A stretch of 33,785 nt of DNA. Source: Candidatus Woesearchaeota archaeon (GTDB taxonomy: Archaea; Nanobdellota; Nanobdellia; SCGC-AAA011-G17; UBA489). The translations under genes were made by a program, and so were the position numbers. How positions within the stretch are numbered: the first letter of the stretch is position 1; every line of letters begins with the position of its first letter. The stretch is taken from NCBI GenBank assembly GCA_964367575.1, contig CAYIYF010000001.1, positions 1 to 33,785 of the forward strand, written 5' to 3'. The notes under the pieces were generated by a model. That model worked only from the letters and a program-made list of their open reading frames with translations, was not told the DNA's origin and made no database searches. Positions 3,406-30,890 of the stretch are shown piece after piece.

Positions 3406-4265
3406 TTTTTGAAAAGATTTTTCACCAGAAAAAAGATGTTTTCCTTTCTTTCTTTAAGCCTCCTAAAATAATAGGGAAACCATTCTTCTCCATAGGGAAT
3501 ATAACACCTGACAGCACATCCTTTCTTGGCCAATTCCTCCTTAAAATAAGGCCGTATTCCGTAAAGCATCTCAAACTCATACTTTTTTTGAGGTATTCTT
3601 TTCTTTTTTATAATCTTTCTTGCAAAATTGATTATTGCATCGTCATGTGTTGCAATAGCAATGAACTTACTTTTACCTAAAAATGAATTAAGAATTTTTC
3701 TGTAATTTTTATCAACATCACTTTTTTTCTGATAGGCTACGATTTCATTTTCCTTGTAAGCACCTTTAACAATTCTCAAACTTCCTTTTAATCGCACAAT
3801 TTCATCAGCATCACTATAGGCTCTATATAGATATGCTTGTATCGCCTGAATAACGTCATTGTTATATTTCAATATCTTCTTGTAAAGATGCATAGTCATT
3901 TCAGTATTTGCAGAGCCTTCCATGTCTACTTCAAGCCTTAGGTGCAATCTTTTTGCGGCAATTGCAATCTTTTTAAAATTTTCAAAACAAAAATTTTTAT
4001 CTATGGCCAAACCAATTTTGGTCAGTTTAATGGATATATTTGCGTTTAGTTTCTCTTTTTTTATTCTTTCAAGAATTTTTATATAAACCGATGTTGCATA
4101 ATTAGCAGCAGCCCTATTCAGAACATCTTCACCAAGATGGTCGATAGTAGCATTTATATTTTTTTCTTTAAATTTCTTGGCAGCACCTATAGCACTATCA
4201 AGTGTTATGCCGGCTACAAAACGCTTTGCTAGAAATGCTAGTACTTTCATAAGGCCTCTTTTCAT
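3402..4265 (-). CDS. monofunctional proline dehydrogenase
   Basis: FVAG...DHLGED, LRIVKGAYKE, IATHDD, EMLYGI and IPYGEEWFPYYFRRLKERKEN match the PRODH (PF01619) layout. ATGA overlap with the downstream M24 peptidase gene. Confidence 0.8.
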   Translation of the reverse strand: MKRGLMKVLAFLAKRFVAGITLDSAIGAAKKFKEKNINATIDHLGEDVLNRAAANYATSVYIKILERIKKEKLNANISIKLTKIGLAIDKNFCFENFKKIAIAAKRLHLRLEVDMEGSANTEMTMHLYKKILKYNNDVIQAIQAYLYRAYSDADEIVRLKGSLRIVKGAYKENEIVAYQKKSDVDKNYRKILNSFLGKSKFIAIATHDDAIINFARKIIKKKRIPQKKYEFEMLYGIRPYFKEELAKKGCAVRCYIPYGEEWFPYYFRRLKERKENIFFLVKNLFKK

Positions 4266-4501: not shown

Positions 4502-4819
4502 ATGTTTGTTGTCATTGAAACCAAAACGTACCAAGAAGAGTTAGATAAATGGACAAAAGCTGACAAAGAAGCTGCTAAAAAATTACCACAAAAACTATCC
4601 GAAAATCCATTCGTTGGAAAGCAACTCACGTACAAATTTCTCAGAGAAAAGCACATTGGTGGGAGAAGAGTTTACTACCTCATTTATGAAGATTTTAATC
4701 TTGTGCTGCTGGTTGCCACAAGCGAGAAAAAAGATCAACAAGCGACTATCGACCATATCAAAGGCAACTTGGATGATCTTAAAGCTCTCGCTGAAAAGAT
4801 ATCTAAGCAACTCTCTTAA
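4502..4819 (+). CDS. RelE/ParE-like toxin-fold protein, paralogue 1
   Basis: Track ORF 4397..4819; the likely start is the internal ATG at 4502 (MFVVIETKTYQEELDKW...), giving 105 aa against 104 aa for the paralogue at 5173. ENPFVGKQLTYKFLREKHIGGRRVYYLIYEDFNLVLLVATSEKKDQ resembles the RelE/ParE core. A TATA-like tttttaagat lies about 25 nt upstream. Confidence 0.55.
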   Translation: MFVVIETKTYQEELDKWTKADKEAAKKLPQKLSENPFVGKQLTYKFLREKHIGGRRVYYLIYEDFNLVLLVATSEKKDQQATIDHIKGNLDDLKALAEKISKQLS

Positions 4820-8433: not shown

Positions 8434-8585
8434 ATTAAATTAAAATATTTATTTACTATTTAAAGACTTCTTTTTTAGAATGTTTTTGCTTGATAAGTGC
8501 ATCGAATAAAACTTCCGCAAGAAAGTTAATTTTAATTTATAAACCGGTTCAATTTGGAAACGGTATATATAACCCAAAAACCGGA

Positions 8586-8690
8586 TGAGCCGAGGAGGAT
8601 TTGAACCTCCGACCCATACCTTGTAAGGGTATTGCCATCTGCAGGGCCTCAAACATTGTCTTAAAGACCTAACCGCTAGGCCACCGGCTC
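8586..8690 (-). tRNA. tRNA-Val(UAC) with a 32-nt non-canonical intron in the D-loop (intron 8639..8670)
   Basis: Hand fold of the minus strand: acceptor GAGCCGG/TCGGCTC, anticodon arm ATACC-CTTACAA-GGTAT, T-arm GGAGG-TTCAAAT-CCTCC, discriminator A. Total 105 nt against 73 nt expected. BHB: central helix GCGG/CTGC, 3-nt bulges TTA and AGA, 6-bp inner helix GGTCTT/GAGGCC. The spliced product is 73 nt. Confidence 0.7.
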
Positions 8691-9410
8691 GAATTCTACT
8701 ACCTTGCCATCATAATAATCTCTTAAAAACCTTTCCATCTCTTTTGATCTTGGAACGTGGCCTGTAAGTGTAAAAACATCAAATTTGATGATATGCTTTT
8801 CATTTGAACTTCCAATTTTGTCAAAATAATTCTTGACATTATCAGCGCCATAAAAGAAGATAGCTTTCTTTGAGTGACTAAACTTCATTCCTAAGGCTAT
8901 GAATCCCTCAACTGCAGATTCTAGTAATGAAGGTATCTTTATTGTCAAATCAGTCATTATTTTCGCATTTGGATGTGGACAGACACTTCCATCAGTGTCG
9001 TGCATTCCTTTGAGGCATCGTTTGAGAAGTTTAGGATTAGAAAAAAAGTATTCAGGGATTGTTATCCGCGCTGCTTTTTTATTTCCTAAAGGAAAACCGC
9101 ATTTATACATAAACTTTACAATTTTACGATTATAGATGATACATCTCGTTACTCTTCCTTGAGTACCATAGCTTGGATAAATTTTTGGCGTAATTCTAAA
9201 CAATCTGTTAATTAATTGTGGAACATAGACAGTAATATACTCCTTATCGAGAAGAGCGTCTGAACTAATATTAAGGCCATTTCCGTTAGAATATAAACAA
9301 CCATCTCCTAGCATTATCCCATAGAATTCCGCAAAATCTTCGCTTTTAACATCAGGAAGAACTCCTTCGTTTTCCTTAAATGCACCATTATTATTACGAG
9401 AAAGTCCCAT
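8676..9410 (-). CDS. double-motif LAGLIDADG homing endonuclease, free-standing
   Basis: Two LAGLIDADG motifs: FYGIMLGDGCL and LKGMHDTDGSV. TATA-like TTTAAATA about 25 nt upstream of the ATG. The last five codons plus stop (GAGCCGGTGGCCTAG) are the first 15 nt of tRNA-Val. Confidence 0.8.
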   Translation of the reverse strand: MGLSRNNNGAFKENEGVLPDVKSEDFAEFYGIMLGDGCLYSNGNGLNISSDALLDKEYITVYVPQLINRLFRITPKIYPSYGTQGRVTRCIIYNRKIVKFMYKCGFPLGNKKAARITIPEYFFSNPKLLKRCLKGMHDTDGSVCPHPNAKIMTDLTIKIPSLLESAVEGFIALGMKFSHSKKAIFFYGADNVKNYFDKIGSSNEKHIIKFDVFTLTGHVPRSKEMERFLRDYYDGKVVEFEPVA

Positions 9411-9504
9411 TAACTTTTATTAAAAAGAATATTTAAATCACTTCCCCGCACACCCAGTAAGTGCGATAAGTGCCTTTTTATATTTGAAAAGTTAATATAT
9501 TATT

Positions 9505-21209: not shown

Positions 21210-21283
21210 AGCCACCGATGGGATTTGAACCCACGACCTCCGCATTACCAATGCGACGCTCTACCGAGCTGAGCCACGGCGGC
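21210..21283 (-). tRNA. tRNA-Thr(GGU), intronless
   Basis: Hand fold of GCCGCCGTGGCTCAGCTCGGTAGAGCGTCGCATTGGTAATGCGGAGGTCGTGGGTTCAAATCCCATCGGTGGCT: anticodon loop TTGGTAA, T-loop TTCAAAT. Confidence 0.85.
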
Positions 21284-30795: not shown

Positions 30796-30816
30796 CTAGA
30801 TGTTTTTCAATGTAAG

Positions 30817-30890
30817 AGCCACCGAGGGGATTTGAACCCCCGACCTATGGTTTACGAAACCATCGCTATACCGAGCTAAGCCACGGTGGC
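30817..30890 (-). tRNA. tRNA-Thr(CGU), intronless
   Basis: Hand fold of GCCACCGTGGCTTAGCTCGGTATAGCGATGGTTTCGTAAACCATAGGTCGGGGGTTCAAATCCCCTCGGTGGCT: anticodon loop TTCGTAA. Confidence 0.85.

What the first reader, a model, noticed from the sequence alone, without database searches (positions are those of the whole stretch)
8676..9410. Free-standing LAGLIDADG endonuclease gene reads 15 nt into tRNA-Val
The endonuclease is a 244-aa double-motif LAGLIDADG protein with its own TATA-like box. It is not inside an rRNA/tRNA intron or an intein. Its last five codons and stop are the tRNA acceptor/D-stem 5' strand (GAG CCG GTG GCC TAG).

The only TATA-like element for the tRNA (ATTATTAT, about -22 to -29) lies inside the endonuclease coding sequence. 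Two readings follow:
- the two genes are co-transcribed, in which case RNase P cleavage at the tRNA 5' end would remove the mRNA stop codon; or
- the endonuclease gene has invaded the tRNA promoter region.

Either way, a homing-endonuclease gene is physically coupled to an intron-bearing tRNA gene. That raises the question of whether it targets intron-less or empty alleles of this locus.
Basis: partly seen in the sequence, partly recalled or inferred. Interest (0 to 1): 0.68.

Follow-up and report, generated by a model that had tools for sequence, protein, structure and literature searches.

The report
Homing endonuclease gene welded to tRNA-Val
A gene for a selfish DNA-cutting enzyme is fused onto the front of a valine tRNA gene in a tiny (DPANN) archaeon, and relatives show this is a widespread arrangement I found no description of, in which the enzyme gene seems to colonise tRNA genes by bringing its own tRNA front end and promoter.

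Summary
A 244-aa double-motif LAGLIDADG ORF (8676-9410, minus strand) ends GAG CCG GTG GCC TAG. Those 15 nt are nt 1-15 of a tRNA-Val(UAC) gene (8690-8586) that carries a 32-nt bulge-helix-bulge intron in the D-loop.

The coupling is not a local accident:
- In 28 of 29 homologous loci from Woese-, Pace-, Aenigmat-, Nano- and Nanohaloarchaeota, the gene abuts or overlaps tRNA-Val(UAC). Thirteen stop at the same U13-A14-G15.
- A sister subfamily sits on tRNA-Gln.
- Both catalytic Asp residues are kept in about 97% of 160 cluster representatives.
- Among eight syntenic relatives the gene is present in three. Each of those three has a sister lineage with an "empty" tRNA-Val allele.
- Two copies are frameshifted.
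- Full-length members are preceded by a relic copy of the tRNA's first 20-24 nt, often supplying the ATG.
- D-loop introns are enriched at these tRNAs (16/28 versus 0/18).

Best reading: a mobile homing-endonuclease cassette that inserts into tRNA genes and carries a replacement tRNA 5' segment plus promoter. The window copy is an N-terminally truncated member. Cleavage, homing and transcription are untested. I found no prior description in the searched literature.

The parts
8676..9410 (-). LAGLIDADG endonuclease-type ORF, 244 aa, stop codon included. It is a short form that lacks the ~90-aa N-terminal domain found in most family members.
   Evidence: ORF listing. Ten homologues at 31-59% identity. 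AlphaFold model with pLDDT 89.8. Foldseek top hits are the Tli VMA intein endonuclease domain, I-Tsp061I, PI-SceI and I-DmoI.
9300..9326 (-). LAGLIDADG motif 1 (FYGIMLGDG), with catalytic Asp36.
   Evidence: Translated. D36 is kept in 156 of 160 family representatives.
8988..9014 (-). LAGLIDADG motif 2 (LKGMHDTDG), with catalytic Asp140.
   Evidence: Translated. Position 140 is D in 153 and E in 6 of 160 representatives.
9430..9437 (-). TATA box (TTTAAATA) of the ORF, 19 nt upstream of the ATG. The spacing suggests a leaderless mRNA.
   Evidence: Sequence. The same spacing of TATA, about 20 nt, then ATG is seen in homologous loci. That it acts as a promoter is inferred.
9427..9447 (-). Possible decayed relic of the tRNA 5' end (GGGGAAGTGATTTAAATATTC), now containing the ORF's TATA box.
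   Evidence: It lies 27 nt from the ancestral TATA. In empty alleles tRNA +1 lies 26 nt from that TATA. MAFFT aligns it with the tRNA 5' ends of the empty alleles. It is not significant by the position-weight-matrix score alone (p = 0.62).
9475..9486 (.). Ancestral bidirectional TATA region, shared with the divergent Zn-ribbon/MATCAP/RsmF operon.
   Evidence: It is homologous to the TTTAAATA that sits 26 nt upstream of tRNA-Val in the empty alleles L035 and L042-L045.
8586..8690 (-). tRNA-Val(UAC) gene. Exon 1 is 8690-8671, the D-loop BHB intron is 8670-8639 (32 nt), exon 2 is 8638-8586, and the anticodon is 8625-8623.
   Evidence: Rfam tRNA model, 32.6 bits. Fold with BHB. ARAGORN calls tRNA-Val(tac), 73 nt, after in-silico splicing, and the BHB central helix covaries across loci.
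8676..8690 (-). 15-nt overlap. The last four sense codons plus the stop (E-P-V-A-TAG) equal tRNA nt 1-15, and the stop is U13-A14-G15.
   Evidence: The same register is seen in 13 of 26 intact homologous loci. These tail residues are low-confidence or disordered in the model.
8712..8729 (-). TATA-like elements inside the ORF's 3' end: TTTTTAAGA (8729-8721, codons F-L-R) and ATTATTAT (8719-8712). These are the candidate tRNA promoter.
   Evidence: TTTTAAGA or TTATAAGA lies at -47..-22 of the tRNA in 24 of 26 loci. In the empty alleles the TATA is at about -34..-27. Function is inferred.
8576..8580 (-). T5 run 5 nt after the tRNA 3' end. It is the likely archaeal terminator for both the tRNA and any ORF read-through transcript.
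   Evidence: Sequence. Function is inferred from the known oligo-T termination of archaeal RNA polymerase.

Best explanation
The ORF belongs to a large DPANN-archaeal family of LAGLIDADG homing-endonuclease genes that live at the 5' edge of tRNA genes. This subfamily uses tRNA-Val(UAC); another uses tRNA-Gln.

Proposed unit and mechanism:
- The unit is a cassette. It consists of the endonuclease ORF followed by the element's own copy of the tRNA's 5' segment. The tRNA promoter is embedded in the last codons of the ORF (TTTTTAAG, coding F-L-R/K).
- The cassette inserts into a resident tRNA gene around the D-arm (nt ~20-25).
- The resident 5' segment is left upstream as a relic. In many members the relic supplies the ATG, which corresponds to tRNA nt A21-U22-G23.
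- The cassette-borne 5' segment joins the resident 3' part and rebuilds a working tRNA.
- Because the two are fused so tightly, the ORF often has no stop of its own. It terminates at U13-A14-G15 of the tRNA D-loop, as in this window.
- The 32-nt D-loop BHB intron sits at the element junction. It is either the stump of the insertion or a device that disrupts the enzyme's target site and so protects the allele.

The window copy:
- It has lost the N-terminal accessory domain.
- It keeps only a decayed relic.
- It keeps an intact catalytic core.

Shown: the anatomy, the family-wide linkage, the conserved active site, patchy presence, pseudogenes, the relics and the intron enrichment.

Inferred: DNA cleavage, the target site, homing by double-strand-break repair, and promoter use.
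For: 1. Linkage to the tRNA.
- 26 of 29 distinct Val-family loci from five DPANN lineages have tRNA-Val(UAC) starting -21 to +14 nt from the ORF stop.
- Two more are frameshifted copies that still run into the tRNA.
- 13 stop at the same TAG as the window.
- The loci were retrieved by protein patterns only, so the retrieval was blind to the tRNA.

2. Other tRNAs.
- P0011 and P0041 sit on tRNA-Gln(UUG/CUG) in the same way.
- 44 of 160 representatives end in tRNA-encoded tails such as GPVV, SPVV or APVV.

3. Enzyme.
- The fold is that of LAGLIDADG endonucleases.
- Asp36 is kept in 156 of 160 and Asp/Glu140 in 159 of 160.
- The family has 600 clusters at E < 1e-30.

4. Patchy presence.
- In eight syntenic loci (RsmF-MATCAP-Zn-ribbon), each LAGLIDADG-positive lineage has a negative sister. 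The pairs are WIN/L035 at 84% RsmF identity, L001/L043 at 85% and L004/L045 at 71%.
- L001 versus L043 shows a clean difference of 1089 nt against 69 nt. The right breakpoint falls exactly at tRNA +1.
- The WIN/L035 homology likewise breaks 1 nt upstream of tRNA +1.

5. Decay. L033 and L034 are frameshifted.

6. Relics.
- 17 of 25 ORFs have a tRNA nt 7-20-like 14-mer at a stereotyped offset upstream of the ATG, either -14/-15 or -50..-60. The score exceeds the 95th percentile of genomic windows (binomial p = 6e-17). An example is L016, GGGCCCGTGGTCTAGCGGCT|ATG.
- L023, L025 and L027 also carry a 3'-half relic of a second tRNA-Val. In L023 this relic pairs with the upstream relic.

7. Intron enrichment. 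D-loop introns occur in 16 of 28 LAGLIDADG-adjacent tRNA-Val genes against 0 of 18 other tRNAs in the same loci (Fisher p = 3e-5).

8. Promoter. A TATA-like element lies in the ORF's last codons in 24 of 26 loci.
Against: - No cleavage, target-site or transcript data exist.
- LAGLIDADG divergence among WIN, L001 and L004 (57-59%) is close to that of neighbouring housekeeping genes (RsmF 65-66%, MATCAP 68%). WIN and L001 also share homologous upstream flanks. Long vertical residence with repeated loss is therefore as compatible with the data as repeated homing.
- No near-identical copies were seen in different genomic contexts, so recent transfer is not shown.
- A cassette that rebuilds an intact tRNA would also rebuild its own target. 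Immunity by the intron or by D-loop sequence differences is assumed, not shown. The ORF-positive, intron-less alleles L001 and L004 need a separate explanation.
- The window copy lacks the N-terminal domain and a clear relic, so it may no longer be mobile or active.
- Pfam does not recognise the window protein.
- MAG contigs may contain assembly errors, and these could account for the two frameshifts.
Confidence: 0.6

Rival explanations
1. Immobilised remnant kept as a promoter donor. The window ORF descends from such a cassette but no longer works as a homing endonuclease, having lost its N-terminal DNA-binding domain and its left homology arm. It persists because its 3' end carries the only promoter, and its last 15 nt the 5' end, of what is probably the genome's only tRNA-Val(UAC) gene. 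Deletion would therefore be lethal.
For: - The short form lacks about 90 N-terminal residues that are present in most relatives.
- There is no significant upstream relic.
- The TATA-like elements for the tRNA lie inside the ORF.
- Divergence tracks the neighbouring genes.
Against: - The complete catalytic core is conserved. Both Asp residues are intact and the reading frame is open over 244 codons at about 58% identity to relatives. Promoter constraint would protect only the last ~15 codons.
- Short forms recur in several lineages (P0003, P0004, P0006, P0010 and L028), so they may be functional.
- L035 shows that the ORF can be absent while the tRNA keeps working from the ancestral TATA.
Confidence: 0.25
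2. Domesticated DNA-binding protein. The family would be a host regulator built on the LAGLIDADG scaffold, like WhiA. It would bind the tRNA gene or its own promoter and be inherited vertically, with tRNA adjacency reflecting cis-regulation rather than mobility.
For: - Most members carry an N-terminal domain with weak HTH-like hits.
- One source names a member WhiA, and WhiA structures appear among the fold matches.
- The tRNA-like 14-mer sits between the TATA and the ATG in nine loci, as an operator would.
- Divergence is similar to that of the neighbours.
Against: - The catalytic acidic residues are almost invariant. By my own knowledge, WhiA proteins have lost them.
- Presence is patchy among sister lineages.
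- There are frameshifted copies.
- The tRNA 5' and 3' relics indicate insertion events.
- The subfamilies have different tRNA targets.
Confidence: 0.12
3. Co-transcription is the point of the coupling. ORF and tRNA would be one transcript. The tRNA would act as a processing signal that defines the mRNA 3' end, as in tRNA punctuation. RNase P cleavage would remove the stop codon, so the endonuclease would be translated only from unprocessed transcripts, which would keep it scarce.
For: - There is no terminator or spacer between the ORF and the tRNA.
- The first T-run follows the tRNA.
- The read-in register is conserved in 13 loci.
- The CCN Pro codon before the tRNA uses all four third bases, so translation does reach this point.
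Against: - About half of the family has its own stop codon 1-14 nt before the tRNA, so loss of the stop is not required.
- A TATA-like element at promoter distance inside the ORF would allow independent tRNA transcription.
- This reading does not explain the relics, the patchy presence or the pseudogenes.
- It is compatible with the best explanation rather than an alternative to it.
Confidence: 0.15
4. Intron-encoded endonuclease. The ORF would lie inside a very long D-loop BHB intron whose true 5' exon is the upstream tRNA-like segment. The proximal 5' segment would be part of the intron.
For: - In L016 the upstream copy (GGGCCCGTGGTCTAGCGGCT) is intact and abuts the ATG exactly at the intron insertion site, 20|21.
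- Archaeal rRNA BHB introns are known to carry LAGLIDADG ORFs, for example I-DmoI and I-Tsp061I.
Against: - In the window the upstream segment is decayed, with about 9 of 16 matches.
- The proximal 5' segment pairs perfectly with the tRNA's 3' acceptor strand and forms the BHB.
- In most loci the upstream copies have lost the acceptor strand.
- In L016 the upstream copy fits the BHB central helix worse than the proximal one, by my own inspection.
- This reading is plausible as the ancestral state, not as the present one.
Confidence: 0.04

Closest known systems
Archaeal intron-encoded LAGLIDADG homing endonucleases (I-DmoI, I-Tsp061I, I-PorI, I-ApeI) in rRNA bulge-helix-bulge introns
   Same: - Double-motif monomeric LAGLIDADG fold. 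I-Tsp061I and I-DmoI are among the best structural matches.
- Archaeal host.
- Association with a stable-RNA gene that carries a BHB intron.
   Different: - The ORF is outside the intron.
- The host gene is a tRNA, not an rRNA.
- The ORF is bracketed by two copies of the tRNA's 5' segment.
- Start and stop codons can be tRNA sequence.
- Most members carry an extra N-terminal domain.
Intein-borne LAGLIDADG endonuclease domains (Thermococcus/Pyrococcus VMA inteins, PI-SceI)
   Same: They are the closest relatives by sequence and by structure.
   Different: - There are no Hint or protein-splicing blocks and no extein.
- The ORF starts at its own ATG behind its own TATA box.
Free-standing phage homing endonucleases beside their target: T4 SegB in the tRNA gene cluster, mobE with trans-homing of the I-TevIII intron (PMC2790892), and F-CphI "collaborative homing" with the psbA intron (the SegB and F-CphI details are from my own knowledge)
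   Same: - The endonuclease gene lies next to, not inside, the gene it presumably targets.
- A nearby intron may interrupt the target site.
- Flanking DNA moves together with the endonuclease gene.
   Different: - These enzymes are GIY-YIG or HNH, and they are in phage genomes.
- The target's terminus is not duplicated.
- The coding sequence does not overlap the target gene.
- For the present family, cleavage has not been tested.
Mitochondrial free-standing LAGLIDADG/GIY-YIG ORFs that insert at a gene end and carry a replacement copy of the displaced terminus (for example Allomyces atp6; from my own knowledge), and tRNA-targeting integrative elements that carry a tRNA 3' fragment
   Same: The logic is the same. 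The invader restores the interrupted host gene by bringing a substitute for the displaced part and leaves the resident part behind as a relic.
   Different: - Here the replaced part is the 5' end of a tRNA together with its promoter.
- The enzyme is an endonuclease rather than an integrase.
- The hosts are DPANN archaea.
WhiA (bacterial LAGLIDADG-derived transcription factor)
   Same: LAGLIDADG scaffold plus an HTH-type domain. It appears among the fold matches, and one source uses the name for a family member.
   Different: - By my own knowledge, WhiA has lost the catalytic acidic residues and its HTH is C-terminal. Here both Asp residues are conserved and the extra domain is N-terminal.
- This family is archaeal, patchily distributed and linked to tRNA genes.

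Membership tests
LAGLIDADG endonuclease superfamily | Two LAGLIDADG helices, each ending in a catalytic acidic residue | tested here: met
   The motifs are FYGIMLGDG (D36) and LKGMHDTDG (D140). D36 is kept in 156 of 160 and D/E140 in 159 of 160 representatives.
LAGLIDADG endonuclease superfamily | Pseudo-dimeric alpha-beta-beta-alpha-beta-beta-alpha fold | tested here: met
   The AlphaFold model has pLDDT 89.8 and pTM 0.87. Foldseek matches at probability 1.00 include the Tli VMA intein endonuclease domain, I-Tsp061I, PI-SceI, I-DmoI and I-SceI.
LAGLIDADG endonuclease superfamily | Match to curated family models (Pfam PF14528 / PF00961 / PF03161) | tested here: inconclusive
   The window protein gives no Pfam hit even at E <= 1. 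Homologues P0002, P0005, P0007 and P0009 pass PF14528.
LAGLIDADG endonuclease superfamily | Site-specific DNA cleavage leaving 4-nt 3' overhangs | not testable with these tools
   This needs a biochemical assay.
Homing endonuclease gene (mobile element) | Fixed, specific insertion site in a conserved host gene | tested here: met
   28 of 29 Val-family loci sit at the tRNA-Val(UAC) 5' edge. Gln-family loci sit at the tRNA-Gln 5' edge.
Homing endonuclease gene (mobile element) | Sporadic presence or absence among close relatives, with intact empty sites | tested here: met
   There are three positive/negative sister pairs among eight syntenic loci. The breakpoints fall at tRNA +1.
Homing endonuclease gene (mobile element) | Degenerating copies, as expected from the homing cycle | tested here: met
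   L033 and L034 are frameshifted or stop-containing copies still attached to tRNA-Val. Assembly error cannot be excluded.
Homing endonuclease gene (mobile element) | Horizontal spread: gene phylogeny incongruent with the host, or near-identical copies in different contexts | tested here: inconclusive
   Divergence parallels that of the neighbours. The empty alleles share an ancestral promoter segment that is absent from the positive alleles, which favours allele replacement. No recent transfer was seen.
Homing endonuclease gene (mobile element) | The enzyme cleaves the empty allele, and the occupied allele is immune | not testable with these tools
   This needs an in vitro cleavage assay on L042-L045-type and L035-type alleles and on the enzyme's own allele.
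Intron-encoded homing endonuclease | ORF located inside the intron of the host gene | tested here: not met
   The ORF lies 5' of exon 1. The intron (8670-8639) is 32 nt long and holds no ORF.
Intein | In-frame insertion in a host protein with Hint splicing blocks | tested here: not met
   The ORF is stand-alone, with its own ATG and TATA box. No Hint domain was detected.
Archaeal bulge-helix-bulge tRNA intron | Two 3-nt bulges separated by a 4-bp helix. Removal yields a canonical tRNA. | tested here: met
   The central helix is GCGG/CUGC, flanked by bulges UUA and AGA. It covaries across loci as GUGG/CCGC, GUGG/CUAC and GUGG/CCAU. The spliced product is called tRNA-Val(tac), 73 nt. Splicing itself was not tested.

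The most novel reading that the evidence does not exclude
These LAGLIDADG cassettes may be the agents that create and spread non-canonical (D-arm) bulge-helix-bulge introns, and fragmented tRNA genes, in DPANN archaea.
- The mini-intron at position 20|21 would be the 3' stump of an ORF-bearing insertion.
- An internal duplicate of exon 1 plus a promoter would turn an intron-encoded endonuclease into a free-standing one.
- The left-behind 5' and 3' relics would be intermediates on the way to split or replaced tRNA genes.

If so, this would be the first direct mechanistic link between a homing endonuclease and tRNA intron gain, tRNA gene splitting and tRNA gene replacement in archaea.
Probability: 0.3. 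Interest if true: 0.85.

Novelty: new variant of a known kind. Interest (0 to 1): 0.72.

Why it matters
How archaeal tRNA genes acquired introns at non-canonical positions is an old open question, as is how split tRNA genes arose. No enzyme that moves such introns is known. This family places a probable homing endonuclease exactly at a D-loop intron site of tRNA genes across several DPANN phyla. Empty alleles, relics and pseudogenes are all available for comparison, so the question becomes directly testable with cleavage assays on defined natural alleles.

It also shows an unusual way for a selfish gene to be harmless, and hard to lose. Instead of being spliced out, it rebuilds the essential gene it interrupts by carrying the gene's 5' end and promoter inside its own coding sequence.

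There are two practical points:
- tRNA-Val genes of this kind are missed by standard tRNA finders.
- The family offers many natural LAGLIDADG enzymes with predictable tRNA-gene targets.

Tried and rejected
- Pfam on the window protein gave no hit. The family assignment had to come from PDB, NCBIfam, homologues and the structure model.
- ARAGORN on the window missed the tRNA-Val.
- The metagenome scan with the RsmF neighbour returned only one locus, L035, but that locus was the key empty site.
- The viral-contig scan found only distant LAGLIDADG relatives at 24-27% identity, so there is no sign of a viral vector.
- The position-weight-matrix search for a tRNA relic upstream of the window ORF was not significant. 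Only positional homology supports a decayed relic.
- Eight literature searches and one reading found no description of tRNA-linked LAGLIDADG genes in DPANN.

Ideas rejected:
- Maturase for the D-loop intron. L035 has the intron without the ORF, and L001 and L004 have the ORF without the intron.
- Intein or intron-encoded ORF. The anatomy does not fit.
- Chance adjacency. 28 of 29 loci show it.
- ATTATTAT as the only tRNA TATA element. The conserved element is TTTTTAAG.

Not attempted:
- dN/dS, because the sequences are too divergent.
Full report
**Observation.**
The minus strand of 8676-9410 holds a 244-codon ORF that starts with ATG and ends with TAG at 8678-8676. Its last 15 nt, GAG CCG GTG GCC TAG (8690-8676), are nt 1-15 of a tRNA-Val(UAC) gene that runs to 8586. 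ARAGORN does not report this tRNA. Rfam's tRNA model reaches 32.6 bits, but only over 8650-8586, where it uses intron sequence as a false D-arm.

The real gene has three parts:
- exon 1, 8690-8671
- a 32-nt intron, 8670-8639
- exon 2, 8638-8586

The intron lies in the D-loop between nt 20 and 21. It forms a textbook bulge-helix-bulge motif: nt 15-18 (GCGG) pair with CUGC, flanked by the 3-nt bulges UUA and AGA. This motif appears in the minimum-free-energy fold. After in-silico splicing, ARAGORN calls a 73-nt tRNA-Val(tac). The central helix covaries in homologous loci (GUGG/CCGC, GUGG/CUAC, GUGG/CCAU).

- TTTAAATA lies 19 nt before the ORF's ATG (9437-9430).
- ATTATTAT lies at -29..-22 of the tRNA (8719-8712).

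**The protein.**
Pfam finds nothing in the window protein. PDB and NCBIfam sequence searches hit the endonuclease domain of archaeal VMA inteins. An AlphaFold model built on 11 sequences (pLDDT 89.8) matches LAGLIDADG enzymes, including the Tli VMA intein, I-Tsp061I, PI-SceI, I-DmoI and I-SceI, and also WhiA.

A profile search of 1.84 billion cluster representatives finds 600 clusters at E < 1e-30, most about 300 aa long. In an alignment of 160 members, the two catalytic acidic residues are essentially invariant: D36 in 156 of 160, and D or E at position 140 in 159 of 160.

Most members have an extra ~90-aa N-terminal domain with faint HTH-like hits. The window protein lacks it. The five tRNA-encoded C-terminal residues are low-confidence in the model.

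**The linkage to tRNA is a family property.**
Homologous loci were retrieved purely by protein similarity. The organisms include Woesearchaeota, Pacearchaeota, Aenigmatarchaeota, Nanoarchaeota and Nanohaloarchaea MAGs.

Of 29 distinct loci:
- 26 have a tRNA-Val(UAC) gene starting between -21 and +14 nt of the ORF's stop.
- 13 of those stop at the same U13-A14-G15 as the window.
- Two more are frameshifted copies that still run into tRNA-Val.
- One (L026) has the tRNA 2.1 kb downstream.

Upstream neighbours differ between lineages, so ORF and tRNA travel as a pair. More distant members sit in the same way on tRNA-Gln(UUG) and tRNA-Gln(CUG). In addition, 44 of 160 representatives end in peptides that are translations of tRNA 5' ends, such as GPVV, SPVV and APVV.

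**Patchy presence.**
Eight loci share the window's neighbourhood, in which tRNA-Val is divergent from a Zn-ribbon/MATCAP/RsmF operon. Three carry the ORF: the window, L001 and L004. Five do not: L035 and L042-L045.

On an RsmF tree, each positive locus pairs with a negative sister:

| Positive | Negative sister | RsmF identity |
|---|---|---|
| window | L035 | 84% |
| L001 | L043 | 85% |
| L004 | L045 | 71% |

Breakpoints and the state of the empty alleles:
- L001 and L043 differ by 1089 nt versus 69 nt, and homology resumes exactly at tRNA +1.
- Window/L035 homology ends 1 nt upstream of tRNA +1.
- The empty alleles share a bidirectional TATA (TTTAAATA) 26 nt upstream of the tRNA, plus a homologous spacer that the occupied alleles lack.
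- L042-L045 are intron-less.
- L035 has the same D-loop intron as the window but no ORF.

LAGLIDADG identity among the three occupied loci (57-59%) is close to that of RsmF and MATCAP (65-68%). The window and L001 also share their upstream flank. Long residence with losses, and allele replacement by recombination, are therefore both possible.

**Relics.**
Seventeen of 25 ORFs are preceded by a 14-mer resembling tRNA nt 7-20. It lies at one of two stereotyped offsets from the ATG, -14/-15 or -50..-60, and scores above the 95th percentile of genomic windows. By chance 1.25 would be expected (p = 6e-17).
- In L016 an intact GGGCCCGTGGTCTAGCGGCT abuts the ATG.
- In the -14 class the ATG coincides with tRNA A21-U22-G23, which is the first three nt of exon 2.

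In such members both the start and the stop of the ORF are tRNA sequence, and the ORF bridges a relic 5' segment and the functional tRNA.

L023, L025 and L027 also carry a 3' half of a second tRNA-Val downstream. In L023 the acceptor strand of that half pairs with the upstream relic. This indicates that a whole [ORF + tRNA-Val] unit was inserted into a resident tRNA-Val gene.

In the window, the position where the ancestral tRNA would start (27 nt from the ancestral TATA) reads GGGGAAGTGATTTAAATATTC (9447-9427). MAFFT aligns this with the tRNA 5' ends of the empty alleles. By score alone it is not significant.

D-loop introns occur in 16 of 28 LAGLIDADG-adjacent tRNA-Val genes, but in none of 18 other tRNAs in the same loci (p = 3e-5). 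The caveat is that Rfam detects D-loop-intron tRNAs only weakly.

**Expression (inferred).**
In 24 of 26 loci the codons F-L/I-R/K near the ORF's end read TTTTAAGA or TTATAAGA at -47..-22 of the tRNA. In members with their own stop codon this element sits at about -32..-23, close to the -34..-27 of the empty alleles' TATA. In read-in members it lies about 12 nt further upstream, which matches the four extra codons (L-P-Y-Y/H). The tRNA promoter therefore probably lies inside the ORF.

There is no terminator between the ORF and the tRNA. A T5 run follows the tRNA (8580-8576). ORF transcripts probably read through the tRNA, and RNase P would then remove the stop codon. None of this was measured.

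**Most likely mechanism.**
This is a homing-endonuclease cassette that targets the D-arm region of a tRNA gene. It does not rely on being spliced out. It carries its own copy of the tRNA 5' segment and a promoter, so a working tRNA is rebuilt downstream of the ORF and the resident 5' segment is left as a relic. The 15-nt overlap and the borrowed TAG are by-products of that fusion.

The D-loop mini-intron lies at the junction. It may be the stump of the insertion or may protect the allele by interrupting the target. Recombination between the two tRNA 5' copies would excise the ORF cleanly, which fits the empty sister alleles.

The window copy is an N-terminally truncated member. Whether it is still active is unknown.

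- Shown here: anatomy, linkage, active-site conservation, patchiness, pseudogenes, relics and intron enrichment.
- Inferred: cleavage, target, homing and promoter use.

**Rivals.**
- An immobilised remnant retained because it now provides the promoter and 5' end of an essential tRNA. This cannot be excluded for this particular copy.
- A domesticated WhiA-like regulator. This is disfavoured by the conserved catalytic residues, the patchiness and the pseudogenes.
- Coupling for co-transcription and RNase P-dependent control. This is compatible with the main explanation but does not account for the relics or the patchiness, and half the family has its own stop codon.
- A giant ORF-bearing D-loop intron. 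This is plausible as the ancestral state, not for this copy.

**Comparison and novelty.**
The enzyme is an ordinary member of the LAGLIDADG superfamily, nearest to intein-borne and archaeal intron-encoded enzymes. What is new is the arrangement:
- it is tRNA-gene-resident;
- it is bracketed by tRNA 5' segments;
- it contains the tRNA promoter;
- it often starts and stops in tRNA sequence;
- it is tied to a non-canonical BHB intron.

The nearest analogues in logic are:
- phage free-standing endonucleases beside their targets (mobE, PMC2790892; SegB and F-CphI from my own knowledge);
- mitochondrial ORFs that bring a replacement gene terminus (my own knowledge);
- tRNA-targeting integrative elements (my own knowledge).

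Eight full-text searches and one reading found no description of this family or arrangement. The library is incomplete, so prior description cannot be excluded.

**Limits.**
- All comparative loci are metagenome assemblies or MAGs.
- Taxon labels are those of the depositors.
- The genome scan used two peptide patterns, so prevalence across DPANN is unknown.
- Intron calls in L014, L018 and the Nanohaloarchaea were made by inspection.

Noticed in passing
L037 3964-4183: The last 17 nt of tRNA-Gln(CUG), GAATCTGCTCGGGGCTA, occur three times within about 220 nt downstream of the LAGLIDADG gene. GC-rich, structured-looking segments lie between them. These may be footprints of repeated insertions or alternative 3' pieces.
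   Followed up: no
L023 ~1083-1108 and 2203-2245; L025 ~3745-3795; L027 ~3775-3825: A 3' half of a second tRNA-Val(UAC) lies just after the intact tRNA-Val. In L023 it pairs with an upstream 5' relic (GGCCCGT / ACGGGCC), as if a whole ORF+tRNA unit had split and replaced a resident tRNA-Val.
   Followed up: partly
L014 3652-3800, L016 3655-3830, L018 1925-2100: These tRNA-Val genes carry two or three introns each, at the D-arm or position 26/27, in the anticodon loop and in the T-loop. They escaped my simple tRNA finder and were read by eye.
   Followed up: no
L026 3672-5902: This is the only intact family member without an adjacent tRNA. Its tRNA-Val(UAC) lies 2.1 kb downstream, and an Rfam RT-16 RNA match (68 bits) lies in between at 4524-4650. 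That suggests a later insertion separated the ORF from the tRNA.
   Followed up: no
window 9448-9474 (minus strand): A hairpin, CGCAC-TTACTGG-GTGCG, lies between the ancestral TATA and the putative relic. The adjacent 10-mer ACTTATCGCA is shared with the equivalent position in L001 but is absent from the empty alleles.
   Followed up: partly
L035 3570-4172: In the closest relative, the slot between tRNA-Val and the Zn-ribbon gene holds a 200-aa ORF with an HExxH motif on the opposite strand. It has no Pfam family and no homologue in the window.
   Followed up: partly
L005, L010, L014, L016-L019, L031-L034: the 12 nt before tRNA +1: The four codons before the tRNA encode L/V-P-Y-Y/H. The Pro codon uses all four third bases while CC stays fixed, which is a protein-level constraint on a tail that abuts the tRNA. 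The window does not share this tail. This is unexplained.
   Followed up: no
window 21210-21283 and 30816-30890: Two intron-less tRNA-Thr genes (GGU and CGU) on the minus strand have no LAGLIDADG neighbour.
   Followed up: yes
L005 4242-4463 and 6981-7079; L030 2306-2546: Other tRNAs in these genomes often carry introns at the anticodon loop, up to a 150-nt gene in L030, but none in the D-loop.
   Followed up: partly
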